Positions 2,563 through 22,411 of a stretch of 64,000 bases of DNA are shown here, piece after piece. Location: the IMG/VR virus record IMGVR_UViG_3300025086_000015, positions 11,870 to 75,869 of that record; one strand, 5' to 3'. Numbering within the stretch: the first letter of the stretch is position 1; each line of letters begins with the position of its first letter. The position numbers were made by a program, and so were the translations under genes. This DNA is from a virus. The notes below the pieces were generated by a model. That model did not search any database and was not told where the DNA came from. It saw only the letters and a program-made list of their open reading frames with translations.

Positions 2563-3720
2563 TTATTCATTTTTCCCAGCCTCTACTGACTGAGATTTAT
2601 ATCGAGGGTCACTAATTCCCTCTAATATGCTACTTACCGTCATATCTACAATTTCTTGATGACAATGTTCAGGTAATTCACAATCGATCGACAAATTTAG
2701 TGAAATATTTGCCGGTTTTCTTATATACGTTATTTTTAGCTTATCTATTATAAATATAGCACTTGTATAGATGTCTATATAACTACCACGTATCGTTGTA
2801 AGTGGTGATGTGTATTTTGTTGTGTTAAAAGGATCATTTAATAATGTAAAAATATCATCATGCTGCACAAATTTATTTACAGCACTTATAGTTGTTCCTC
2901 CAATTATATCTCTCTTATTTCCATACGTACTATCTTCATATTGCGCAGAGGCAGAAACTATGGTATTATTTGTTGCGTCTCTACCAATAAAAGAAGTTGC
3001 TAAATTAGAACCACTAGTTAGATTAGTTACAGACATATCCCAATTAAACCATGGGAATAATGTTGTTGCATCTACCTCAAATATAAAGTTTCCAGGAACT
3101 GTTAGTTCTCCATACTGCTCCCAATACACGTTTATACCCGGAACAGTAATACCTAAAATACTTAATCTAACATTTTCTGTATCTGCTGGATACGTAAATC
3201 CTGAACCACCAGACCAAATTAATTGATCTCCTAAAAGAGGATTATCTGGATCAGCCATCATACGTATTGAGTCAACAAAATCTGTAGATCCATTGTTAGC
3301 ATTATTACATACAAAATCATTTAAACTAATTGTAAAATAATTTAAAGGTTGATTGTTTCTTAAATCCCACGACACACGTTCACAATTGTTAATTTTAACA
3401 TCGGATCTTTGTGACACTAAATACATGTAATCTATAGGTAATTTAAAAGTATCAATCCAAAAATCAGCACTTAATTGATCTTTATATGTTACAGGGTTTT
3501 CATACTCTGTAACTAAAGTTCTTAAGTCATCTATTCTTTTTTGAGATTGTTCAAATCCTTTCCCTAATGCATTGTTTCTACCATATTTTGTATTTATAAA
3601 TTTAATTTGAGCTTTATTCAGCTCTAAATCTATTTCTTCTTGTAGTAGCATATCAGCTTGGAGTGAATTAATTTTATCCACTCCTTGCTGTATTGCTAAA
3701 TGCATTTCGAGTACATTCAT
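2563..3720 (-). CDS. Tail ring / head-tail connector protein (crAss-like)
   Basis: N-terminal EEIDLELNKAQ...GFEQSQKRIDDLRTLV and C-terminal YIRKP...CELPEHCHQEIVDMTV, characteristic of crAss-like ring proteins. Confidence 0.7.
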   Translation of the reverse strand: MNVLEMHLAIQQGVDKINSLQADMLLQEEIDLELNKAQIKFINTKYGRNNALGKGFEQSQKRIDDLRTLVTEYENPVTYKDQLSADFWIDTFKLPIDYMYLVSQRSDVKINNCERVSWDLRNNQPLNYFTISLNDFVCNNANNGSTDFVDSIRMMADPDNPLLGDQLIWSGGSGFTYPADTENVRLSILGITVPGINVYWEQYGELTVPGNFIFEVDATTLFPWFNWDMSVTNLTSGSNLATSFIGRDATNNTIVSASAQYEDSTYGNKRDIIGGTTISAVNKFVQHDDIFTLLNDPFNTTKYTSPLTTIRGSYIDIYTSAIFIIDKLKITYIRKPANISLNLSIDCELPEHCHQEIVDMTVSSILEGISDPRYKSQSVEAGKNE

Positions 3721-3724
3721 ATTA

Positions 3725-4534
3725 TTATACTGCTAATTCTTTAAGTTTAGCTCTTAAAACGGTTAATGTTGAAGAATTTTTCTTATCTCTAAGATAAACA
3801 ACTGCATTATCTAAAGTATCCCCAATTATATCATCTATAAAAATAATTTGGTTTCCTATTTTTCTTAATACACCTGCTGTTATCATTTCTTCTATTTCTG
3901 CCTTTAATTCTAAGTTTTTATCTGAAGCAATTTTTAAGAATTTAGCTGGACTCTTATCTTTGATTTCATAAAGTTGATTCTCTATTTGATCACCTGTTAA
4001 ACGGTCAGGATTAACATTTGCGATCAATCTTAAAATTCTCTTCATAGTTTTTACATCTGCAGAAGCTTTGATAAACATTTTATCTGCATCTTTTCTGAGT
4101 TGAATTTTATTATTTTTAACTTTATCGTCTCTTGTAAGATCTTGAATATAAAATCTTTTTGCAAAATCTTTATCCATTTCATCTTTTGTTAATGCTACAT
4201 GTGGGTGTTTTAAAGCAAATCTGTATTTGATGTAATCGTCAATCTTTACTGGTACACCGTTAGCATCTACTCCAATCTCTAATTCAACTCCCGTAAATCC
4301 TACTGGTACTGTTAAATTAGCCCAAAATTCTTTAGAGTGTTTTGGCCATTCCACATGGTCTGGACTCACATCTAAAAATCCTTTCATAAACTTTTTTTCT
4401 TCCTCTTCATCGAAAGCTTTTAAAGGTTGTCTATTTACATAGACACTGCTGAGTTTTAATACTGCTTCAGCTCGCACTTGTTTTGGGAGATGGTTTAAAA
4501 CCTCTTTTCTCCTTAATGTTACTTTTTTTGTCAT
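3725..4534 (-). CDS. Conserved crAss-like protein downstream of the MCP
   Basis: Probable start MTKKVTL at 4534, because the longer track ORF begins inside the post-MCP hairpin; 269 aa; conserved position next to the capsid gene. Confidence 0.6.
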   Translation of the reverse strand: MTKKVTLRRKEVLNHLPKQVRAEAVLKLSSVYVNRQPLKAFDEEEEKKFMKGFLDVSPDHVEWPKHSKEFWANLTVPVGFTGVELEIGVDANGVPVKIDDYIKYRFALKHPHVALTKDEMDKDFAKRFYIQDLTRDDKVKNNKIQLRKDADKMFIKASADVKTMKRILRLIANVNPDRLTGDQIENQLYEIKDKSPAKFLKIASDKNLELKAEIEEMITAGVLRKIGNQIIFIDDIIGDTLDNAVVYLRDKKNSSTLTVLRAKLKELAV

Positions 4535-4614
4535 TTTCAGTTCTTTTAAATTAATAGTTAAATGTTGAGATGTAAAGAATAACCCTCTCAACCAAGGTAT
4601 ATTATAAATTGATA

Positions 4615-4687: not shown

Positions 4688-6136
4688 TTAAGATGCTGTA
4701 CAAGTGATGTCAATAGAAGTATCAAATCTACGTAAGCAGATACCAGCTGTTTTCAACATATGTACAGACGCACCATCCACATCAGAAGCTCTAGCATCAG
4801 AACCAGAGAATCCTTTAGGAACTACAGAACCAGCTACACACCATCTCATAGACTCACGACCTTTTTTGTTGATCATTTGTAGGTTGTTTTGTCCATCATA
4901 ATTTGACTGATCAACAAATACCATTCTATAAGATTCTAATGAATATCCAGTTACTGGGTGTTTTGCACGAGCTTGAGCAACAGCACCATGATCAAACAAT
5001 GGTAATTTTACCACGTTTACAGAGTGTCCGTCAATATGCTCGTACGATGTAAAGTATCCTGTCATACCTAAGTTACGACCTGATCCAGTTACAAACTTAC
5101 CGTTATCTACAATTTTAAATGTATTACCAGCAAAGTGCGATTTAAGAGCCTCATCAAATTCTCTAGCTCCACCGATTCCAGTGTAAAGAGTAATTTGTTT
5201 TTTAGAAGCATCTGTCATTTGGTAGAATAAATCACCAATGATGTTCTTTAATTTAGACTCAGTCATTACAGAGTAAGTGTCTTTGTTAACAATTTGCTCT
5301 AAAAGACCTGGGCCTACAATTACTGGCTGACCATTTTCATCTTTCATGAAAGTAGCACCGTTAGCATCATAAGTTTTTTGTCCGTACCAGTAGTACATTT
5401 CACATTCTTCTTTAAAGTCAAGCATGTGTAAGTACTCCTCATAATCCATCCAAAGTTTAGTAGTAGATCCACCTTTAGTTGGTAAAGAGAATTCTGCTAC
5501 AAAATCTTTAGCGTTTCCAGACATGTGGTAAGATTTTCTAACTGTAGTTAGTTTATTTCTTACTAAACCTGGAGTTTCCCAGTTTGAAGCGTTACCTCTA
5601 GAGAAGTCTACTCCTACTGGTGCATACATTTGCGCGAAAAGCGCTCCTGCCGCAACATCCGCTGCTGGCATAGTTGCCGTAGCTGATGGGTTTACTAATT
5701 GTAAAGTGTATTTGTAAGATGTGCTTCCTGCTACTTGAGTAGGCTCCATCATTATACGTGCTTGCACCCCAGACTGAGATACTAATACGTATGGAAATAC
5801 GAAGTGTTTATCAGGAAATTCCAACTCGAAAGTTGCCCCTCCTAATCCTAAATTTGCTGTGCTTGCTGGTACCACTGCTACTGGTCTTGTTCTCAATCTG
5901 TGTGTTGACACACGATATTCATACTCAAGACGGTCAATAGACTTAGTGTTTCCAACACCTTCCGTTAAGAAAGATAAAGGGAATCTAGCGTCATCTTTTC
6001 CTGCTAAATGAGTAATAATCGGAGACAATTCCGTAGGCTTGGATAACAAAGCATTAGATAGACTGTTCATATCAGTCATCTGTGAGTCATTGTAAAACGT
6101 CTTTTGGACGCTTATGTTAGTTCCATTTACTGCCAT
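4688..6136 (-). CDS. Major capsid protein (crAss-like)
   Basis: 482 aa; TDMNSLSNALL, RNKLTTVRKSY, GPGLLEQI, YTGIGGAREFDEAL, HPVTGYSLESYRMVFVD and ASDVDGASVHML motifs typical of Crassvirales MCP; portal-scaffold-MCP order. Confidence 0.9.
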   Translation of the reverse strand: MAVNGTNISVQKTFYNDSQMTDMNSLSNALLSKPTELSPIITHLAGKDDARFPLSFLTEGVGNTKSIDRLEYEYRVSTHRLRTRPVAVVPASTANLGLGGATFELEFPDKHFVFPYVLVSQSGVQARIMMEPTQVAGSTSYKYTLQLVNPSATATMPAADVAAGALFAQMYAPVGVDFSRGNASNWETPGLVRNKLTTVRKSYHMSGNAKDFVAEFSLPTKGGSTTKLWMDYEEYLHMLDFKEECEMYYWYGQKTYDANGATFMKDENGQPVIVGPGLLEQIVNKDTYSVMTESKLKNIIGDLFYQMTDASKKQITLYTGIGGAREFDEALKSHFAGNTFKIVDNGKFVTGSGRNLGMTGYFTSYEHIDGHSVNVVKLPLFDHGAVAQARAKHPVTGYSLESYRMVFVDQSNYDGQNNLQMINKKGRESMRWCVAGSVVPKGFSGSDARASDVDGASVHMLKTAGICLRRFDTSIDITCTAS

Positions 6137-16358: not shown

Positions 16359-16565
16359 ATGGCACAAACTTATGACAAGAATGGTAAGTGGTCTAAGACC
16401 ACAACATTCACAACACCTTCGGGTTGGCACATCAGCACTTCGTTATCTCACACTAAAGGTGAGACTGATGTTAAAAAGTCTCAAGACTTTACTAAACTTG
16501 ATGAATTACCAGAGGAAATTCAACAAGGCATCATGGATGGTACTCTTTCAATAAAATTGAAATAG
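16359..16565 (+). CDS. First early gene, hypothetical protein
   Basis: 68 aa; A-rich leader; followed by its own terminator. Confidence 0.65.
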   Translation: MAQTYDKNGKWSKTTTFTTPSGWHISTSLSHTKGETDVKKSQDFTKLDELPEEIQQGIMDGTLSIKLK

Positions 16566-16569
16566 CACT

Positions 16570-16591
16570 AAAGGGACTTTGTCCCTTTTTT
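16570..16591 (+). terminator. Rho-independent terminator
   Basis: AAAGGGAC-TTT-GTCCCTTTTTT. Confidence 0.75.
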
Positions 16592-16598
16592 AATATAT

Positions 16599-16655
16599 AT
16601 GGTAGTAATCAATTTGTAGTTGTGAGTGTGGCTTCGTGGTCACATTCACTACTAT
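16599..16655 (+). other. Long imperfect hairpin
   Basis: GTGAGTGTGGC/GTCACATTCAC stem containing G-U pairs, closed by ATGGT/ACCAT. Confidence 0.5.
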
Positions 16656-16711
16656 TTCCACCATTTATACAATCAATCAAATCGTTAACATTATAATAAT
16701 ATAACACTAAC

Positions 16712-16831
16712 ATGAAAACACTACTTATATTACTATTAGTAGCAGTATTCTTTGGCAGCTGCGCATCAACTTGCCAATATTCTAATAGTCATTCATATAA
16801 AATGAGAAATAATTGTGCAGCATATAGATAG
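16712..16831 (+). CDS. 39 aa lipoprotein (below the ORF-track cutoff)
   Basis: MKTLLILLLVAVFFGSCASTCQYSNSHSYKMRNNCAAYR: signal peptide with FGS-C lipobox; A-rich leader. Confidence 0.65.
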   Translation: MKTLLILLLVAVFFGSCASTCQYSNSHSYKMRNNCAAYR

Positions 16832-16841
16832 TACAAAACAT

Positions 16842-16930
16842 AAATAACAAGGTTTATGATGTGAAATTCATCTCGTGGCCTCTTGACCAATCAGCCGTTA
16901 AATGCGGTAATAGATAGAGACTTGTTATTT
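16842..16930 (+). ncRNA. Structured element D1: long stem capped by a four-way junction
   Basis: AAATAACAAG/CTTGTTATTT and GTTTAT/ATAGAT stems, then three hairpins GATG/CATC, TGG/CCA and GCCGT/GCGGT. Confidence 0.5.
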
Positions 16931-16934
16931 TTAT

Positions 16935-17011
16935 TAGAAAGCATAAACATTAAATTGGGTATGAACATGGAGGTAGACACTATGCAGGTGTTCACATGTT
17001 CTAACTTTCTA
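16935..17011 (+). ncRNA. Structured element D2
   Basis: Nested stems TAGAAAG/CTTTCTA, GAACATG/CATGTTC and GACAC/GTGTT. Confidence 0.4.
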
Positions 17012-17018
17012 TATACAT

Positions 17019-17094
17019 AAATAAAGAATAGTAGAACGTCTTGGATAACAACCTGCAGTGGTAAACCGTAAGGCATGTGGACTATTCTTTATTT
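17019..17094 (+). ncRNA. Structured element D3: 14 bp stem capped by a four-way junction
   Basis: AAATAAAGAATAGT/ACTATTCTTTATTT and ACGT/ATGT stems; small hairpins TTG/CAA, ACC/GGT and CC-GTAA-GG. Confidence 0.5.
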
Positions 17095-17099
17095 TAAAA

Positions 17100-17496
17100 T
17101 ACAGTTGTAAGGTATTTATAGATAAACCTTGTTTTCTAGATAAACAAAACTAATCTTGACACTGATTGACTTGCAAGCAATCACCTATCTGGTTTAAAGA
17201 AGAAACTTTGATTTCATTCTTTACCGTGGATTTAAAATGGTAAACGTGTCCTAAAATATGGATGTGTGTCCATACTGATGATTCCAAAAGGATGAATTTA
17301 GAAAGATTTTGGGGCTTAACCCGATAAGTATAGTAATATACTTAAAGACATAGTGTGGAATCTATGTTGCCAGCAATGGTCAATTTAAGCAAGCAGGATA
17401 CTACACGGCACCAATGGACAAATGTCTGAGGGTATGTGTATCGCTTCTATTTTAGTTGGAGTGATGAGCTAGTGATAGCAATAGGAAATAACTGTA
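17100..17496 (+). ncRNA. Large structured ncRNA candidate D4 (~400 nt)
   Basis: Closing stem TACAGTTGT/ATAACTGTA; more than 10 nested helices; GNRA loops (GTAA, GCAA); no ORF in the track. Confidence 0.6.
17251..17301 (+). ncRNA. Hammerhead-ribozyme-like three-way junction (type III topology, variant core)
   Basis: CTAAA-A-TATGGAT(GTGT)GTCCATA-CTGATGA-TTCC(AAAA)GGAT-GAA-TTTAG. Confidence 0.55.
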
Positions 17497-17500
17497 GATT

Positions 17501-17993
17501 TAGTTTTGAGTTAACTGTCGAGTTAATAAAGAGTATAAATCAGTATGATGGGCAATCTTAGGGAATAAGATATAACCTGAAATACCATAACGATGAAAAG
17601 TTATACTTGAGTAGTTTAGTATTTTGTCTCTCAAAAGGAGGCGAAACTAATGAATAACCGCTACTTGAACCATAAATAATAACAATATTTATACAACTAA
17701 AAAAGAACAAGTGTTGTTCCGTTAAACATTGAAAGATGACTAAGTCTGAACACGTATGCGTATGTGAATTCAGTTGCATTGATCCCTCAAGGTGATATGT
17801 ATTTCAAGTGAAAGTCAGGTATGGGCCCTAGAACCCATCACCTCGTATGAGTAGTTTGTGAGTAAATGTTTATTGTTAAGAGTGGTTAGCTATACTAACC
17901 GTCATTACACAATACTATTGGAGACGATAGTGGATACGTTGCTAACTCATAAGGCAACAAAAGATGTGTACTATTAGCTATAATCTCAGGCTA
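17501..17993 (+). ncRNA. Large structured ncRNA candidate D5 (~490 nt)
   Basis: Long-range stems TAGTTTTGAG/CTCAGGCTA, AGTTAATA/TATTAGCT, GATGGG/CCCATC, ACCTGA/TCAGGT and GAAATAC/GTATTTC; many local hairpins, some with GAAA/GAGA loops. Confidence 0.6.
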
Positions 17994-18022
17994 TATTTTA
18001 TTAACCTTTTAATCTAAATACT

Positions 18023-18160
18023 ATGAACAACAAGAAATTACTCAAGAATATAACTTGGGAGCTCAAAAGAGCTGAAAAATATTGTACAATATCAATGATA
18101 CTAAATGTATTATTTATATTAATAATAGCAATACAAGCAATTCAATTATATATTAACTAA
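18023..18160 (+). CDS. 45 aa single-pass membrane protein
   Basis: MNNKKLLKNITWELKRAEKYCTISMILNVLFILIIAIQAIQLYIN; CTAAATACT leader. Confidence 0.55.
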   Translation: MNNKKLLKNITWELKRAEKYCTISMILNVLFILIIAIQAIQLYIN

Positions 18161-18173
18161 ATACTAAATAAAC

Positions 18174-18317
18174 ATGGAAACAGATCAAAGAATTTTGAAA
18201 AAGAATTTAGAGATAACTAAACTATCTCAACAAGTAGATAAACTAACATCAGAGTTAGTTAATCTAAAAGAAGAGTATAAACAATTAAAAAACAACACTC
18301 ATGAAGAAGAAAGATGA
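18174..18317 (+). CDS. 47 aa coiled-coil protein
   Basis: METDQRILKKNLEITKLSQQVDKLTSELVNLKEEYKQLKNNTHEEER; fills the gap in the operon. Confidence 0.55.
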   Translation: METDQRILKKNLEITKLSQQVDKLTSELVNLKEEYKQLKNNTHEEER

Positions 18318-18594
18318 AGTATGGTACTGTGAAAACAGTAAGGGACAAAAGATTCCACCTTATAAAAGTACTTATATTGTACCTAAACCTAAGAAATGGA
18401 CATTTGAACGTATCTTAAATAGAATAGGTGTTGTCATTGGCATAGCTATGCTTGTAGCTATTGCATTTAGCTTGACATCTTGCGGGTCATTAAAAATGAC
18501 TGAGAAAGATAAACAAGTAAATTATGAAATTGAGAAGTTATATATTAAATATACTTATCAAAGAGATTCAATACTAATCGAGAATTATAAATAA
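18301..18594 (+). CDS. Membrane protein / lipoprotein
   Basis: Hydrophobic helix IGVVIGIAMLVAIAFS followed by an LTS-C lipobox. Confidence 0.6.
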   Translation: MKKKDEVWYCENSKGQKIPPYKSTYIVPKPKKWTFERILNRIGVVIGIAMLVAIAFSLTSCGSLKMTEKDKQVNYEIEKLYIKYTYQRDSILIENYK

Positions 18595-18609
18595 CTTAAA
18601 TATTACATT

Positions 18610-18762
18610 ATGAAAACAAAAACTAAGATTGAAATTAAAACTGAGTTTATACCTATAGTAGGGTTAGCAGCTGGTTACAGGTCGCGTGAATTAATATTTG
18701 TATTACCATTTATATCTATTGAGATAAATTTTGGTAAACGTAAAGATAAATACGACTTATGA
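18610..18762 (+). CDS. 50 aa hypothetical protein
   Basis: MKTKTKIEIKTEFIPIVGLAAGYRSRELIFVLPFISIEINFGKRKDKYDL; ATGA overlap with the next gene. Confidence 0.55.
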   Translation: MKTKTKIEIKTEFIPIVGLAAGYRSRELIFVLPFISIEINFGKRKDKYDL

Positions 18763-18959
18763 TGGCAGAACTGTTTCAAGTGTGTGTTGACTTGTTAAGA
18801 GACTTGTCATCATACCTTGGATGTACTTATGAAGAAATAAATATTATTATATTTATTATTCTACATCCAACGATCACATTACATTTTATCCTTAAATATA
18901 GAAAAGCTAATAAAGAATTTTATAAACTAAGAGAAATGTACTGGAAACTTAAAAATTAA
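18759..18959 (+). CDS. Small membrane protein
   Basis: 66 aa; LFQVCVDLL...GCTYEEINIIIFIILHP. Confidence 0.65.
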   Translation: MMAELFQVCVDLLRDLSSYLGCTYEEINIIIFIILHPTITLHFILKYRKANKEFYKLREMYWKLKN

Positions 18960-18977
18960 TCTAACCTAAATACTATT

Positions 18978-19241
18978 ATGAAAGAAACCAAAATTATTAC
19001 TATCACATATGAGTGTGACGCTTATGGTAATCACGATTGTCTTGTTGAGGCAATCTGTGATACCAGTGAGCAACAATTTACAGATAAAATGGACGCTATT
19101 CATTTTATTGGTGAGTGTACATCTTGCAAGCATAACTTAAAAGACATACATCCAGATCTCTTCTTCTGGGAAAATAATGAAGAACAACATGATATTCCTA
19201 ACAAGGTGTTAGAAGAATATAGAATTAACAATAATTATTAA
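18978..19241 (+). CDS. Hypothetical Cys/His-rich protein
   Basis: 87 aa; CxxC; CTAAATACT leader. Confidence 0.6.
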   Translation: MKETKIITITYECDAYGNHDCLVEAICDTSEQQFTDKMDAIHFIGECTSCKHNLKDIHPDLFFWENNEEQHDIPNKVLEEYRINNNY

Positions 19242-19260
19242 TAAACAAAAACAATTAAAC

Positions 19261-19854
19261 ATGGACAAGAAAAATGAGTTAAACAGTGGATCATTAGATA
19301 CACTAAAAGTAGGTGAAACATTATTGATTTCAGCTAGACAAATTAACAATGGTAAAATATCATTAGAATTTGCAGAGAAAATAACAGCTAAAGATAGACC
19401 AGTTAGTGCATTAACAGTATTAAATGCAAGTGATGATAGATTTAGTTCAGGTGCTAGACGTGGTTGGGCAACTGCAGAACCATTAGATGCATCTAAAGCA
19501 TTTGATGTAAATTTTGGTGATGATGGTGAATGGTATACATCTGAAAGAGGTGAAATGATGGATTTAGATATTTTAAATCCTACATTTAATGATGTTAGAT
19601 TTAGAGTTCAAATTACAGAAACAACTGAGCCAACGGAATGGCAGGCTGAAAATCTGGAAAGAGCTGCTAAACGTGCAGGTAAAGATGGAGATTATATTAC
19701 ACATAAAGGTGATTATATTTTCTCTAACTCTGATATAATATTATTACCAGAAGGAGAGGATGCTAACCATACATGGTTAACACCAGACACAGAAAGAATG
19801 GCTTCTAAGACAAAAGTTGTTGTAGAAGCAGATGAGGTTGAGGATATGATGTAA
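19261..19854 (+). CDS. Hypothetical acidic protein (possible ssDNA-binding protein)
   Basis: 197 aa; acidic C-terminal tail VEADEVEDMM. The function is a guess. Confidence 0.55.
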   Translation: MDKKNELNSGSLDTLKVGETLLISARQINNGKISLEFAEKITAKDRPVSALTVLNASDDRFSSGARRGWATAEPLDASKAFDVNFGDDGEWYTSERGEMMDLDILNPTFNDVRFRVQITETTEPTEWQAENLERAAKRAGKDGDYITHKGDYIFSNSDIILLPEGEDANHTWLTPDTERMASKTKVVVEADEVEDMM

Positions 19855-20369: not shown

Positions 20370-20513
20370 ATGGATAGACATAGAAAAACGATTAGCATTA
20401 TCTGCATAACAGTGGTTCTGTTATTGATAGTATGGAATTGCTTTTCACCTAAACAATCTCCTATAGTTTCTGATGAAGATTTAAAAGAACTTATAAAATT
20501 AACATCAGAATGA
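20370..20513 (+). CDS. 47 aa membrane protein
   Basis: MDRHRKTISIICITVVLLLIVWNCFSPKQ...; ATGA overlap with polA. Confidence 0.55.
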   Translation: MDRHRKTISIICITVVLLLIVWNCFSPKQSPIVSDEDLKELIKLTSE

Positions 20514-22411
20514 TTACGTTAGTAGATAATACAATAGCCAACCTACCTACATCACATTATCAGTTGGGAACGATTGATGATGTGGTGAGCTATTGTGCTG
20601 ATAAAACAGTATTAGGGGTAGATACAGAGACTGAAGGATTTGATTTTACATGTAAGAAAATGATTATGTTTCAAATTGGAGATGAGAATCAACAGTTTGT
20701 GATAGATACTAGAGTAGTTAGTATTGAACCGTTACGAAATATATTAGAGAGCAGAGAAATTATAAAAATATTTCACAATGCTAAATTTGATTATAAATTT
20801 ATTCGTAGATGGGCAGATATTAAATGTGAAGGTATTTACGACACATTCTTAACAGAACTAGTTATTAGTTGTGGTAAGAGTTTAGGTTATGGGCTTAAAG
20901 ATTTATGTAAACGCTATTTAAATGTAGACTTAAATAAAGAAGTTCGTAATCAGTTTATAGGTTTAACTGGACAACCATTTAGATCTGATCAGATAGTTTA
21001 TGGTGCTAAAGATGTAGAGTATTTATGTAAGATTAAAAACTTACAACAGCCTGATATAGATAAGTATAAATTACAAAATGTAGTTAACTTAGAAAATGAA
21101 GCTGTACTTGCATTTGCAGACATGGAGTATAATGGATTAGATTTAGATGTACTTGAATGGAATAAACTTGAACAAGGTAATAAAGAAGGAGCATTAGCTT
21201 TAAGTAATGAATTAGATTTAATGATTACAGAAGATGCTAGATTACAAAGATTTGTAAAGAAATATGTACAATCAGACATGTTTACACCAATTGAAGATAT
21301 AAGAAAAATTGATGTTAAATGGTCATCTCCTAAACAGGTTCTTGAAGTTTTTCAAGTACTTGTTCCAGGACTCGACAATGTTAACGGTAAACAGATGTAC
21401 AAATATCGCTTTAAGCTTCCACTTATTGATAAATATGTAAAATATAAGGAAGCTATGAAGTTATGTACATCATATGGTGATGCATTTCTTAAGAATTTGT
21501 CAGGAGACAACAAGATCCATACAGGTTTTCATCAAATACTAGACACAGGGCGGGTAAGCTCTTCCAAACCTAACATGCAGCAGATACCTGCTGATAATAG
21601 ATTTAGGAATTGCTTTACTGCACCATCAGGTTGGAAATATGTAAGTGCAGATTATTCTTCACAAGAGTTGAATGTCATCGCTTTTGGTAGTAACGATCCA
21701 GTTTGGATAAATGCATTGAAGAATGACGAGGATTTACACTCAACTTGTGCTGAATTAGTATACGGTGAAACATGGATGAACAGTGGTGAAGATGATTGCG
21801 CTTACTTTGAACGTAGAGGTAAGTGCAATTGTCCATCACATAAAAAACTAAGAACAAATGTTAAAACTATTAATTTTGGTCTGGCTTATGGTATGGGCCC
21901 TAATAAGCTTTCTGATACTCTTAATATTAGTGTGGATGAAGCTAAAGGGCTTATCGAAAAGTATTTCACGGCCTTCCCAGCAATCAAAGGATTCTTAGAG
22001 AAACTAGGCAATTTTGGTAAAAGGTATGGTTATATTAAAACATTTCCACCTTATAACAGAAGGCGTTGGTTTACTAATTGGTATCCTAAAATATGGGACA
22101 ACAAATCATCAGTTATGGAGCTTGGCAGTATAGAGCGTGCTAGTAAAAATACGCCTATACAAGGAGCTAGTGCAGACATGACTAAAAAAGCTTTGGTTTT
22201 ATTACGTAGCTTAATAAAAGAAAACAAGTTAGAAAACCAAGTTAAATTAGTAATGACTGTACATGACCAGATAGATACTATATGTGAGAGTAGATTTGCA
22301 GATAGTTGGGGTCGATTGATGAAAATGACAATGGAAGAAGCTGCATTGGAAATAGTAACAAACGGTTTGCTAAAAGCTGAAGTAACAATTAGCAACTGTT
22401 GGGAAAAATAA
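20510..22411 (+). CDS. polA: Family A DNA polymerase with 3'-5' exonuclease domain
   Basis: Exo motifs DTET, HNAKFD and YGAKD; TGRVSSSKPNMQQIP; motif A DYSSQEL, motif B KTINFGLAYG, motif C VHDQI. Confidence 0.95.
   Translation: MITLVDNTIANLPTSHYQLGTIDDVVSYCADKTVLGVDTETEGFDFTCKKMIMFQIGDENQQFVIDTRVVSIEPLRNILESREIIKIFHNAKFDYKFIRRWADIKCEGIYDTFLTELVISCGKSLGYGLKDLCKRYLNVDLNKEVRNQFIGLTGQPFRSDQIVYGAKDVEYLCKIKNLQQPDIDKYKLQNVVNLENEAVLAFADMEYNGLDLDVLEWNKLEQGNKEGALALSNELDLMITEDARLQRFVKKYVQSDMFTPIEDIRKIDVKWSSPKQVLEVFQVLVPGLDNVNGKQMYKYRFKLPLIDKYVKYKEAMKLCTSYGDAFLKNLSGDNKIHTGFHQILDTGRVSSSKPNMQQIPADNRFRNCFTAPSGWKYVSADYSSQELNVIAFGSNDPVWINALKNDEDLHSTCAELVYGETWMNSGEDDCAYFERRGKCNCPSHKKLRTNVKTINFGLAYGMGPNKLSDTLNISVDEAKGLIEKYFTAFPAIKGFLEKLGNFGKRYGYIKTFPPYNRRRWFTNWYPKIWDNKSSVMELGSIERASKNTPIQGASADMTKKALVLLRSLIKENKLENQVKLVMTVHDQIDTICESRFADSWGRLMKMTMEEAALEIVTNGLLKAEVTISNCWEK

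What the first reader, a model, noticed from the sequence alone, without database searches (positions are those of the whole stretch)
16842..17993. 1.15 kb tandem cassette of five self-closing structured RNA domains at the head of the early region
Seen: in an otherwise very dense genome, this stretch has no credible ORF. It is tiled end to end by five units (16842-16930, 16935-17011, 17019-17094, 17100-17496, 17501-17993). Each unit is closed by a 7-14 bp helix between its own 5' and 3' ends, and units are separated by only 4-7 nt of A/T-rich linker. G-U pairs and GNRA loops favour the plus strand. Established: phages encode large ornate ncRNAs (GOLLD, ROOL) of largely unknown function. Inference: a polycistronic ncRNA locus processed into discrete RNAs early in infection, for example decoys or sponges against host defence, or RNA assemblies. 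This is the best candidate here for an undescribed system.
Basis: partly seen in the sequence, partly recalled or inferred. Interest (0 to 1): 0.88.

Follow-up and report, generated by a model that had tools for sequence, protein, structure and literature searches.

The report
Phage GOLLD RNA with hammerhead leader
Most of this gene-free stretch of an uncultured marine crAss-like phage is a known giant folded RNA (GOLLD) preceded by a hammerhead-type self-cutting motif, with three small unexplained folded modules upstream, so it is a new example of a known kind and not an undescribed system.

Summary
The ORF-free, strongly folded stretch is real, but it is not five equivalent domains. Window 17607-17992 (+) matches Rfam GOLLD (RF02032) over the whole model: 222.4 bits, cut-off 150. 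Comparison with 13 related copies shows one conserved GOLLD core, 17310-17993: 173 consensus pairs, 78 with compensatory changes, 0 of 500 shuffles as good.

Directly upstream lies a type III hammerhead variant, 17251-17301. It scores 24.2 bits, below the cut-off of 48.5. All three stems covary in 9 copies, but the 15.1-16.1 pair is U-A. Before it sits a conserved promoter-like leader starting at 17093. The same leader-hammerhead-GOLLD cassette recurs in three ocean metagenome contigs.

Units 1-3 are genuine stem-closed modules. Each recurs nearly identically in other DNA or RNA contexts, with boundaries at its closing stem. They match no Rfam family, and I found no diverged homologues; their function is unknown.

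Earlier notes of this scan describe similar RNA islands on other marine crAss-like phage DNA. Verdict: a new variant of a known kind, of moderate interest.

The parts
16842..16930 (+). Unit 1: 89-nt stem-closed module (10-bp closing helix AAAUAACAAG/CUUGUUAUUU); no known family
   Evidence: Fold gives -20.2 kcal/mol, z -1.99. An RNA-library contig (X18, record 1, 332 nt) covers 16843-16934 with 6 other letters and has unlike sequence on both sides. No Rfam match at E<=10. No homologue in 1.03 Mb of related loci by covariance model, and none for a 22-mer scan of viral contigs.
16935..17011 (+). Unit 2: 77-nt stem-closed module (7-bp closing helix); no known family
   Evidence: Fold gives -17.0 kcal/mol, z -2.09. 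One near-identical copy lies in L091 7543-7620, 1.6 kb upstream of that phage's GOLLD. Its single change turns a plus-strand G-C into G-U. No other hit.
17019..17094 (+). Unit 3: 76-nt stem-closed module (14-bp closing helix); no known family
   Evidence: Fold gives -21.0 kcal/mol, z -3.83, with 0 of 200 shuffles as good. It is identical in L035 3569-3648 and in L185, both phages without GOLLD, and homology ends at the closing stem.
17093..17163 (+). 5' edge of the GOLLD cassette: conserved promoter-like leader with a 19-nt near-palindrome (17129-17147) and TCTTGACAC (17154-17162)
   Evidence: Homology with the metagenome contigs L188 and L189 starts at 17093. The block 17110-17162 is conserved in window, L188, L189, L062, L006 and L160. 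Promoter function is inferred, not shown.
17164..17250 (+). Transcribed leader with two local hairpins (17164-17182; 17196-17222)
   Evidence: The hairpin 17196-17222 is shared, with compensated changes, with the L082-type GOLLD 5' extension.
17251..17301 (+). Type III hammerhead variant. Stem III 17251-55/17297-301; N17 = A17256; predicted cut 17256|17257; stem I 17257-63/17268-74; CUGAUGA 17275-81; stem II 17283-85/17290-92 (U10.1.U11.1); GAA 17294-96; U15.1-A16.1.
   Evidence: Rfam Hammerhead_3 over the full model, 24.2 bits (cut-off 48.5), E 0.0016 in a 101-nt search. In 9 copies, 15 pairs are paired in 100% of 135 cells and 9 pairs changed on both sides; 0 of 500 shuffles reach this. Subfamily survey.
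17310..17606 (+). GOLLD 5' domain (the part conserved among this marine subtype)
   Evidence: Homology with 12 other GOLLD copies starts at 17304-17312. Covarying helices 1-16 are listed.
17607..17992 (+). GOLLD 3' domain, including the first hairpin and the variable A-rich linker (about 17669-17712)
   Evidence: Rfam RF02032, model positions 1-416 of 416, 222.4 bits, E 1.2e-61. RNA-library contigs cover it: X6 17280-17925 with no difference, X7 17396-17917, X8 up to 17991.
17826..17833 (+). Hairpin loop with a self-complementary tetranucleotide (CUAG, 17828-17831): candidate symmetric kissing loop between copies
   Evidence: In A2 this loop holds CUAG in 3 copies (window, L088, L086), GAUC in 6 (L082, L083, L084, L085, L091, L094), and a loop with only GC in 4. 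Reading it as an inter-molecular contact is inference from Kretsch et al..

Best explanation
The stretch is part of the variable non-coding RNA island that marine crAss-like phages carry at the start of their rightward gene block. It has two kinds of content.

(1) 17093-17993 is one cassette: a conserved promoter-like leader, a type III hammerhead variant, and a GOLLD RNA (core 17310-17993). The likely sequence of events is as follows. The cassette is transcribed rightward, from its own promoter-like element or by read-through. The hammerhead cuts, probably slowly, between A17256 and U17257. That cut frees a roughly 737-nt RNA with a 5'-hydroxyl end from the leader and from any upstream RNA. 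This RNA folds into the two GOLLD domains. As shown for the marine GOLLD env-38, it would then assemble with copies of itself into a closed RNA-only cage. What the cage does is unknown, here as elsewhere.

(2) 16842-17094 holds three independent small stem-closed modules that phages of this group gain, lose and swap as units. They are most likely co-transcribed structured RNAs of unknown role.

Shown: GOLLD family membership, the conserved fold, the hammerhead fold, the module boundaries, and the presence of the GOLLD part in RNA libraries. Inferred: promoter use, cleavage, cage formation, and any function.
For: GOLLD. RF02032 matches over the full model at 222.4 bits against a cut-off of 150, and it is the only family above its cut-off in the 64 kb. 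On 13 copies, 173 consensus pairs are paired in 97.8% of cells, 78 pairs changed on both sides, and 0 of 500 shuffles reach this; slid controls pair in 33-43%.

Cassette. Three of the 4 metagenome hits (L186, L188, L189) carry the same leader-hammerhead-GOLLD order, with homology starting at 17093. L186 scores 192.3 bits for GOLLD.

Hammerhead. The full model aligns and all three stems covary. Natural U15.1-A16.1 and U10.1.U11.1 variants are reported to cleave, the former less efficiently, and phage hammerheads are proposed to process long transcripts (Perreault 2011, PMC3088659, passages).

RNA. Contigs from RNA libraries of 3 studies cover the GOLLD part. In the cultured relative phi14:2, the equivalent long intergenic regions are transcribed rightward, are abundant from the earliest time point and persist (bioRxiv 10.1101/2020.03.07.982082, passages).

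Cage. GOLLD env-38 (marine, 833 nt) forms a 14-mer (bioRxiv 10.1101/2024.12.08.627333, passages). A loop here keeps a self-complementary core while changing from CUAG to GAUC.

Modules. Units 1, 2 and 3 each recur nearly identically in a different context, with homology ending at the closing stems. L035 and L185 differ by whole modules.
Against: The hammerhead scores below Rfam's cut-off (24.2 against 48.5). In the window it has the non-canonical U15.1-A16.1 pair, which published work links to reduced activity, so it may cleave poorly or not at all.

No read ends could be examined, because only assembled contigs were available.

The promoter is a resemblance, recalled from memory, to Bacteroidota and sigma-70 motifs. 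The simple promoter scan did not list it.

There is no tRNA nearby (0 in the window and 0 in 59 related loci), whereas GOLLD is often found next to tRNAs.

The conserved core has a 5' domain of about 300 nt, against 420 nt in env-38, so the cap contacts of the cage may differ.

For units 1-3 no diverged homologue was found. No covariation test is therefore possible. Their z-scores are modest and similar on both strands.
Confidence: 0.8

Rival explanations
1. One reading: five equivalent self-closing RNA domains, transcribed as one polycistronic ncRNA and cut at the A/T-rich linkers into five discrete RNAs that together form an undescribed anti-defence or assembly system.
For: Units 1-3 are stem-closed and separated by 4-7 nt A/T-rich linkers. 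No terminator-like site lies between 16650 and 18700 on the plus strand, so co-transcription is possible. Unit 4 folded alone has a 9-bp terminal helix.
Against: 17607-17992 is GOLLD. The 17496/17501 boundary lies inside covarying GOLLD helices. The closing helices of units 4 and 5 are not conserved. The cassette 17093-17993 moves as one unit without units 1-3 in L188, L189 and L186. Units 1-3 occur elsewhere without GOLLD, in L035 and L185.
Confidence: 0.05
2. The hammerhead-like element does not cleave. It is a decayed or purely structural three-way junction, and the 5' end of the GOLLD RNA is set by transcription initiation or by host RNases.
For: It is sub-threshold for Rfam. The window copy has U15.1-A16.1. 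Perreault 2011 reports at least 10-fold losses for changes at 15.1/16.1 and treated such hits as rejects unless activity was measured. Nine of the 13 GOLLD copies in A2 have no hammerhead at all, including 4 that start right after a terminator-like hairpin.
Against: All other core positions are intact, and N17 is never G in 49 parsed subfamily members. Stems covary perfectly, and the 15.1-16.1 pair itself flips by a double change between near-identical cassettes (window against L188), which fits selection on the fold. The other three hammerhead-GOLLD cassettes have the canonical A-U pair. A natural U-A variant was reported to self-cleave.
Confidence: 0.3
3. Units 1-3 act at the DNA level and are not functional RNAs. 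They could be miniature inverted-repeat insertions, recombination cassettes that shuffle the island, or cruciform or origin-like elements at the strand-switch region.
For: The closing helices are perfect Watson-Crick inverted repeats, so they are strand-symmetric. Minus-strand z-scores are as good as plus-strand ones. The copies are near-identical across phages whose PolA is only about 78% identical, which fits recent transfer. No diverged family members were found. The cumulative GC-skew minimum lies at about 16.55-16.85 kb.
Against: Plus-strand folds are 1.6-4.1 kcal/mol more stable. The one substitution in unit 2 keeps a plus-strand pair as G-U. Unit 1 lies in an RNA-library contig. The equivalent region of phi14:2 is abundantly transcribed. 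I saw no target-site duplication at the three unit-3 copies.
Confidence: 0.25
4. The stretch encodes several small proteins.
For: Frames of 31-73 aa exist on both strands.
Against: None of the 6 frames tested inside the stretch has a PHROG or Pfam match. Conservation follows RNA pairing, with 78 compensated pairs. Homology blocks end at stem boundaries, not at frame boundaries.
Confidence: 0.02

Closest known systems
GOLLD RNA (Rfam RF02032). Discovery paper Weinberg et al. 2009 is recalled and was not read here; structure of env-38 from Kretsch et al., bioRxiv 10.1101/2024.12.08.627333, passages read.
   Same: Full-model Rfam match. Conserved 3' domain with a long-range helix enclosing its central hairpins and the terminal loop UAAUCUCAG. 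A more variable 5' region and an A-rich variable linker. Phage-borne, of marine origin, and about 0.7-0.83 kb long.
   Different: No tRNA in or near it. The conserved 5' domain is about 300 nt, not 420 nt. A hammerhead variant and a conserved leader are fused to its 5' end. The carrier is a crAss-like phage. I found no paper holding both GOLLD and Crassvirales.
Type III hammerhead ribozymes of phages (Rfam RF00008; Perreault et al. 2011, PMC3088659, passages read)
   Same: Three stems around CUGAUGA...GAA, with H at position 17. Stem I and II loops of the common phage subfamily (GUGU and AAAA/GAAA). A U10.1.U11.1 start of stem II, as in 29 of 49 parsed subfamily members. Intergenic phage context.
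   Different: U15.1-A16.1 replaces A-U, as in 6 of 49 parsed members. The score is below Rfam's cut-off. It directly precedes a giant ncRNA, not an mRNA.
Ribozyme-associated intergenic RNA arrays and RAGATH motifs (Weinberg et al. 2015, recalled and not read; mentioned in PMC5737381, passages read), and the abundant early long non-coding RNAs of Cellulophaga phage phi14:2 (bioRxiv 10.1101/2020.03.07.982082, passages read)
   Same: An ORF-free island at the head of the rightward early block of a marine crAss-like phage. It mixes self-cleaving ribozyme motifs (hammerhead here, twister-like in relatives) with unnamed folded modules. In phi14:2 such regions are highly transcribed from early infection.
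   Different: Units 1-3 match no RAGATH or other Rfam family. The phi14:2 island shares no detectable module with the window and instead carries a tmRNA-like element.

Membership tests
GOLLD RNA (RF02032) | Covariance-model score at or above Rfam's gathering cut-off over the whole model | tested here: met
   222.4 bits against 150, model positions 1-416 of 416, E 1.2e-61. Reproduced.
GOLLD RNA (RF02032) | Conserved multi-helix fold supported by compensatory changes | tested here: met
   13 copies, 173 pairs, 97.8% of cells paired, 78 pairs changed on both sides, 0 of 500 shuffles as high; slid controls 33-43%. The alignment is of close to moderately diverged marine copies only.
GOLLD RNA (RF02032) | [quoted passage not shown] | tested here: met
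   The core 17310-17993 is 684 nt; with hammerhead and leader the RNA is about 830 nt. Sequence upstream of 17310 falls into at least 4 unrelated types among the 13 copies. Size criterion from Kretsch et al..
GOLLD RNA (RF02032) | Phage or prophage context, often next to tRNAs (typical, not obligatory) | tested here: inconclusive
   Phage context is met: an IMG/VR virus record, and TerL 42% identical to crAss-like phages. tRNA neighbourhood is not met: 0 tRNA in the window and 0 in 59 related loci.
GOLLD RNA (RF02032) | Homo-oligomeric RNA-only cage (14-mer in env-38) | not testable with these tools
   Indirect only: one hairpin loop keeps a self-complementary core (CUAG in 3 copies, GAUC in 6).
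Hammerhead ribozyme, type III (RF00008) | Rfam gathering cut-off | tested here: not met
   24.2 bits against 48.5. E 0.0016 only because a mere 101 nt were searched. It was not listed when 1.7 kb were searched.
Hammerhead ribozyme, type III (RF00008) | Three helices around the core, stem III open | tested here: met
   15 pairs, 100% of 135 cells paired in 9 copies, 9 pairs changed on both sides, 0 of 500 shuffles as high; slid controls 28-47%.
Hammerhead ribozyme, type III (RF00008) | Core C3 U4 G5 A6 N7 G8 A9, G12 A13 A14, and H17 | tested here: met
   CUGAUGA 17275-81, GAA 17294-96, A17256. Core definition from Perreault 2011.
Hammerhead ribozyme, type III (RF00008) | A15.1-U16.1 pair | tested here: not met
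   The window has U15.1-A16.1. Among the 9 aligned copies, 5 have U-A and 4 have A-U. Among 49 parsed subfamily members, 6 have U-A. Perreault 2011 reports that one natural U-A variant self-cleaves less efficiently. I therefore call it a hammerhead variant that probably works like a hammerhead, not a proven member.
Hammerhead ribozyme, type III (RF00008) | Site-specific self-cleavage | not testable with these tools
   Only assembled contigs were available, and these cannot show ends.
tRNA or tRNA-like (considered for the 76-89-nt units 1-3) | Cloverleaf recognised by ARAGORN or the Rfam tRNA model | tested here: not met
   0 genes by ARAGORN. No tRNA-clan match at E<=10 in 16832-17180.
Known small self-cleaving ribozymes or RAGATH motifs (considered for units 1-3) | Match to any Rfam model | tested here: not met
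   cmscan of 16832-17180 alone at E<=10 gave a single match, to rdlD (15.1 bits, cut-off 50), on the minus strand at 17120-17167, which lies outside the units.

The most novel reading that the evidence does not exclude
Units 1-3 may be members of a very diverse pool of mobile, stem-closed small RNA cassettes. Sibling modules fill the same island in related marine crAss-like phages. These phages would exchange the cassettes at the head of their early operon. Some cassettes could be uncatalogued catalytic or processing RNAs that act together with the hammerhead, twister and GOLLD elements beside them. A further possibility is that the ribozyme-defined 5' end is a required step in building the GOLLD cage.
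Probability: 0.2. Interest if true: 0.7.

Novelty: new variant of a known kind. Interest (0 to 1): 0.38.

Why it matters
GOLLD has been known since 2009 and was recently shown to build an RNA-only cage larger than a ribosome, yet its function is still unknown. This locus offers three handles on that question. It places GOLLD in marine crAss-like phages, a group with a cultured, transcriptomically studied relative (phi14:2). It shows a recurrent cassette in which a hammerhead-type motif sits a few nucleotides before the conserved core, which suggests how the mature 5' end is made and which construct to use in experiments. And it shows that GOLLD is one interchangeable cargo of an island that elsewhere carries twister-like ribozymes, a tmRNA-like RNA or unnamed modules. 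For the scan, the result is mainly a correction: the 'undescribed system' is largely an annotated Rfam family.

Tried and rejected
Searches that found nothing:
- blastn (distant mode) of 16600-18100 against 50,697 GenBank phage records gave no match.
- ARAGORN found no tRNA or tmRNA in the window or in 59 loci.
- Rfam on the three small units alone gave nothing relevant.
- Exact 22-mer scans of viral contigs found unit 3 in 2 contigs, unit 2 in 1 and unit 1 in 0.
- Covariance models built from units 3, 2 and 1 (each from one or two near-identical rows) were searched over 99 sources (1.03 Mb). They returned only the sequences they were built from, one further identical copy (L185), and weak reverse-strand echoes. 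No covariation test of units 1-3 was therefore possible.
- Rfam at E<=0.05 on 10 related loci found only GOLLD. The hammerheads there are too weak to show in a 66-kb search.

Coverage of the small-unit region by stem-closed modules is not in itself unusual: 242 of 265 nt, reached by 4 of 300 weakly mixed shuffles. I therefore used summed helix length instead.

Read laying: in the four RNA runs no contig lay on the flanking ORFs (16359-16831, 18023-19300) or on units 2-3. The perfectly matching RNA contig of X6 starts at 17280, 23 nt after the predicted cut. Because these are assembled contigs, neither the missing cover nor the contig ends can be counted as evidence of transcript limits or of cleavage.

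The promoter scan did not list the leader element.

One search tested the unit-5 helix one column out of register, which was my error. The row for slide -1 is the intended helix. No shuffle control exists for that register.

RNAalifold also proposes a 4-bp helix joining the core's two ends (17310-17313 with 17990-17993; 86.5% paired, 2 pairs compensated). It competes with the Rfam terminal hairpin, which also shows a compensated pair (window and L094 C-G against G-C elsewhere), and I left this undecided.

Literature: GOLLD plus hammerhead gave 3 papers. I read passages of one (PMC5737381), which reports no association; the other two I saw only in the listing. GOLLD plus crAss by word start gave 78 papers; the 10 listed are plant papers matched through other words. 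GOLLD plus Crassvirales as whole words gave 0.

Not used: protein searches of the large databases, structure prediction, complex prediction.
Full report
OBSERVATION. The stretch 16842-17993 has no credible ORF. The longest frames are 73 aa and 61 aa, both on the minus strand. None of the 6 small frames I tested inside it matches a PHROG or Pfam family. The summed 31 bp was reached by 0 of 300 dinucleotide-preserving shuffles (mean 16.2, sd 4.6). Taken singly, a helix of at least 10 bp arose in 98 of 300 shuffles and one of at least 14 bp in 4 of 300, so the 7-bp stem alone means little. Single-sequence folding is only moderately better than shuffles: z -1.99, -2.09 and -3.83 on the plus strand against -2.26, -2.76 and -3.03 on the minus strand. 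The plus strand is more stable in all three units.

WHAT THE LARGE PART IS. A scan of the whole 64-kb window against Rfam gives one family above its cut-off: GOLLD (RF02032) at 17607-17992 on the plus strand. The match covers model positions 1-416 of 416, at 222.4 bits against a cut-off of 150, E 1.2e-61 (repeated). This model covers the conserved 3' region of GOLLD.

To find the rest, I collected relatives. PolA (20510-22411) has 334 relatives in IMG/VR, and 80 loci were kept. GOLLD reaches the cut-off in only 5 of those 80 records, and in 0 of the 3 that are at least 90% complete. A pattern from the 5' domain brought the set to 13 distinct copies. Homology with all of them runs from about 17304-17312 to a sharp end at 17993. 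Five copies (L082, L083, L084, L085, L091) also share 17186-17240. The flanks are unrelated.

On the 13-copy alignment RNAalifold predicts 173 pairs. Of the cells, 97.8% are paired and 78 pairs changed on both sides. None of 500 shuffles reaches any of the five measures, and slid controls pair in 33-43% of cells. So 17310-17993 is one GOLLD RNA with a roughly 300-nt 5' domain and the Rfam-matched 3' domain.

The boundary at 17496/17501 lies inside this fold. The segment 17493-17496 (CUGU) pairs in the consensus with an invariant GCAG about 100 nt upstream, and 17497-17502 opens a covarying local hairpin (helix 13: 96.4% paired, 7 of 17 pairs compensated). Unit 4 folded alone does form a 9-bp terminal helix. 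Its 5' arm, however, is absent from the relatives, and the helix shows no covariation: 59.5% paired against 33-62% for slid controls. The arm is kept in L188 and has one mismatch in L189. Unit 5 folded alone has no terminal helix.

THE HAMMERHEAD. Searched on its own, that segment aligns to the whole type III hammerhead model at 24.2 bits. This is below the cut-off of 48.5, with E 0.0016 in a 101-nt search. It was not reported when 1.7 kb were searched.

A pattern built on its stem I loop and CUGAUGA found 85 stretches in IMG/VR. After removing duplicates, 70 rows remained, and my script parsed 49 as hammerheads. The other 21 are either hammerheads with a longer stem II or chance matches in coding DNA, and I dropped them from the counts. 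Among the 49, 43 have A15.1-U16.1 and 6 have U-A. Stem II starts with U.U in 29. N17 is A in 30, C in 11, U in 8 and never G.

In 9 copies from this phage group, all 15 pairs are paired in 100% of 135 cells and 9 pairs changed on both sides. None of 500 shuffles reaches this, and slid controls pair in 28-47%.

The window copy has the swapped U15.1-A16.1 pair. Perreault et al. 2011 (passages) report three relevant things. A natural U15.1-A16.1 variant self-cleaves less efficiently. The U10.1-U11.1 mismatch is the best tolerated. Clustered phage hammerheads probably process long transcripts.

THE CASSETTE. A metagenome scan for 'hammerhead core, short gap, GOLLD core start' returned 4 loci. Three of them (L186, L188, L189) have the same order as the window. 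The fourth (L187) is a chance match in coding DNA. Homology starts at 17093 in L188 and L189. L186 carries a complete GOLLD at 192.3 bits. Their hammerheads have the canonical A-U pair. Between the otherwise 94% identical window and L188, stems I and III differ by compensated changes, including the flip of the 15.1-16.1 pair.

The 17110-17162 block is conserved before hammerheads that precede other cargo too (L062, L006, L160). It holds a 19-nt near-palindrome and TCTTGACAC. I read it as a regulated promoter. That reading rests only on a recalled resemblance to Bacteroidota and sigma-70 motifs, and the simple promoter scan did not list it.

UNITS 1-3. None matches Rfam at E<=10, and none is a tRNA. 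Each recurs nearly unchanged elsewhere, with homology ending at its closing stem:
- Unit 3 is identical in L035 and L185, phages without GOLLD.
- Unit 2 occurs in L091, with one change that keeps a plus-strand pair as G-U.
- Unit 1 occurs in a 332-nt RNA-library contig, with 6 differences and unlike flanks on both sides.

L035 and L185 differ by the presence or absence of whole modules, and the islands of relatives fold into further stem-closed modules. Covariance models of the three units found no diverged relatives in 1.03 Mb. Their folds are therefore untested by covariation, and their function is unknown.

CONTEXT. The window is part of a 75.9-kb IMG/VR virus record that is 87% complete. 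Its TerL is about 42% identical to crAss-like phages. The locus lies after the leftward GroES/terminase block and before PolA.

Relatives carry twister-P1-like hits (37-57 bits, cut-off 67.2) at the downstream edge of the same island. For the cultured marine crAss-like phage phi14:2, Drobysheva et al. (passages) report that two long intergenic regions at the start of the rightward early genes are more highly transcribed than most genes, from the earliest time point, and persist. In that region I find a tmRNA-like match: 46.0 bits against a cut-off of 47.

Contigs from RNA libraries of three studies cover the window's GOLLD part. One has no difference over 17280-17925.

HOW IT MOST LIKELY WORKS. 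Rightward transcription produces an RNA that includes the leader, the hammerhead and GOLLD. The hammerhead, probably a slow one, cuts at 17256|17257 and releases a roughly 737-nt RNA. By analogy with env-38, this RNA then forms an RNA-only cage (Kretsch et al., passages). One hairpin loop keeps a self-complementary core while changing sequence: CUAG in 3 copies, GAUC in 6. That is what a symmetric contact between copies would predict. Cleavage, promoter use, cage formation and any downstream function are inferences.

NOVELTY. GOLLD, phage hammerheads and ribozyme-rich RNA islands are all described. Earlier notes of this scan report similar islands on other marine crAss-like phage DNA, one of them adjoining a GOLLD. 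Two things are new here. One is the recurrent hammerhead-GOLLD cassette. The other is its carrier group. I found no paper that holds both GOLLD and Crassvirales. I also found no report of an association among the 3 papers that hold GOLLD and hammerhead, of which I read passages of one. The supplementary alignments, which might already show such fusions, were closed.

Noticed in passing
L059 3209-3260; L035 4138-4189; L062 4298-4352; L185 1877-1928 (minus strand): Twister-P1-like matches (57, 54.8, 37.2 and 56.2 bits; cut-off 67.2) lie about 35-40 nt before the first ORF downstream of the RNA island in relatives. This is the position taken in the window by the 3' end of GOLLD. In L062 a hammerhead lies about 370 nt upstream of the twister-like match, with an unnamed RNA between them.
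   Followed up: partly
L190 (Cellulophaga phage phi14:2, NC_021806) 4031-4502: A tmRNA-like match (RF00023, 46.0 bits, cut-off 47, E 3.6e-16) with an intact tRNA-like end lies inside the long ORF-free region 2905-4601. That region corresponds to the abundant early non-coding RNAs reported for this phage.
   Followed up: no
L082 about 1060-1215 and the same place in L083, L084, L085, L091: These GOLLD copies carry, in place of the hammerhead, a different roughly 125-nt 5' extension with a covarying 7-bp stem (CUUCAUC/GAUGAAG type). Its loop sequence UAAUACAA is complementary to a downstream UUGUAUUA, which looks like a pseudoknot. No Rfam match at E<=0.05.
   Followed up: partly
L103, L107, L108, L129, L167: Two canonical type III hammerheads lie 1100-1103 nt apart on the same strand in several unrelated viral contigs, as if bracketing a roughly 1.1-kb RNA.
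   Followed up: no
window 16569-16720: An intergenic block is conserved in about 20 of the related loci (nhmmer E<=0.01). It holds two terminator-like hairpins (16570-16588, 16622-16649) and the start of a 39-aa ORF (16712-16831) whose product begins like a lipoprotein signal (MKTLLILLLVAVFFGSC).
   Followed up: partly
L035 3246-3750; L185 (reverse strand) upstream of unit 3; L188 (reverse strand) about 4700-4870: Further stem-closed modules of about 35-120 nt fill the same island in relatives. One (closing stem UGCAAC/GUUGCA) is shared by L035 and L188. One in L188 has the same AAAUAAC...GUUAUUU ends as unit 1. L035 has a roughly 92-nt module that L185 lacks.
   Followed up: partly
window 16550-16850: The cumulative GC skew reaches its minimum here, at the switch from leftward to rightward genes.
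   Followed up: no
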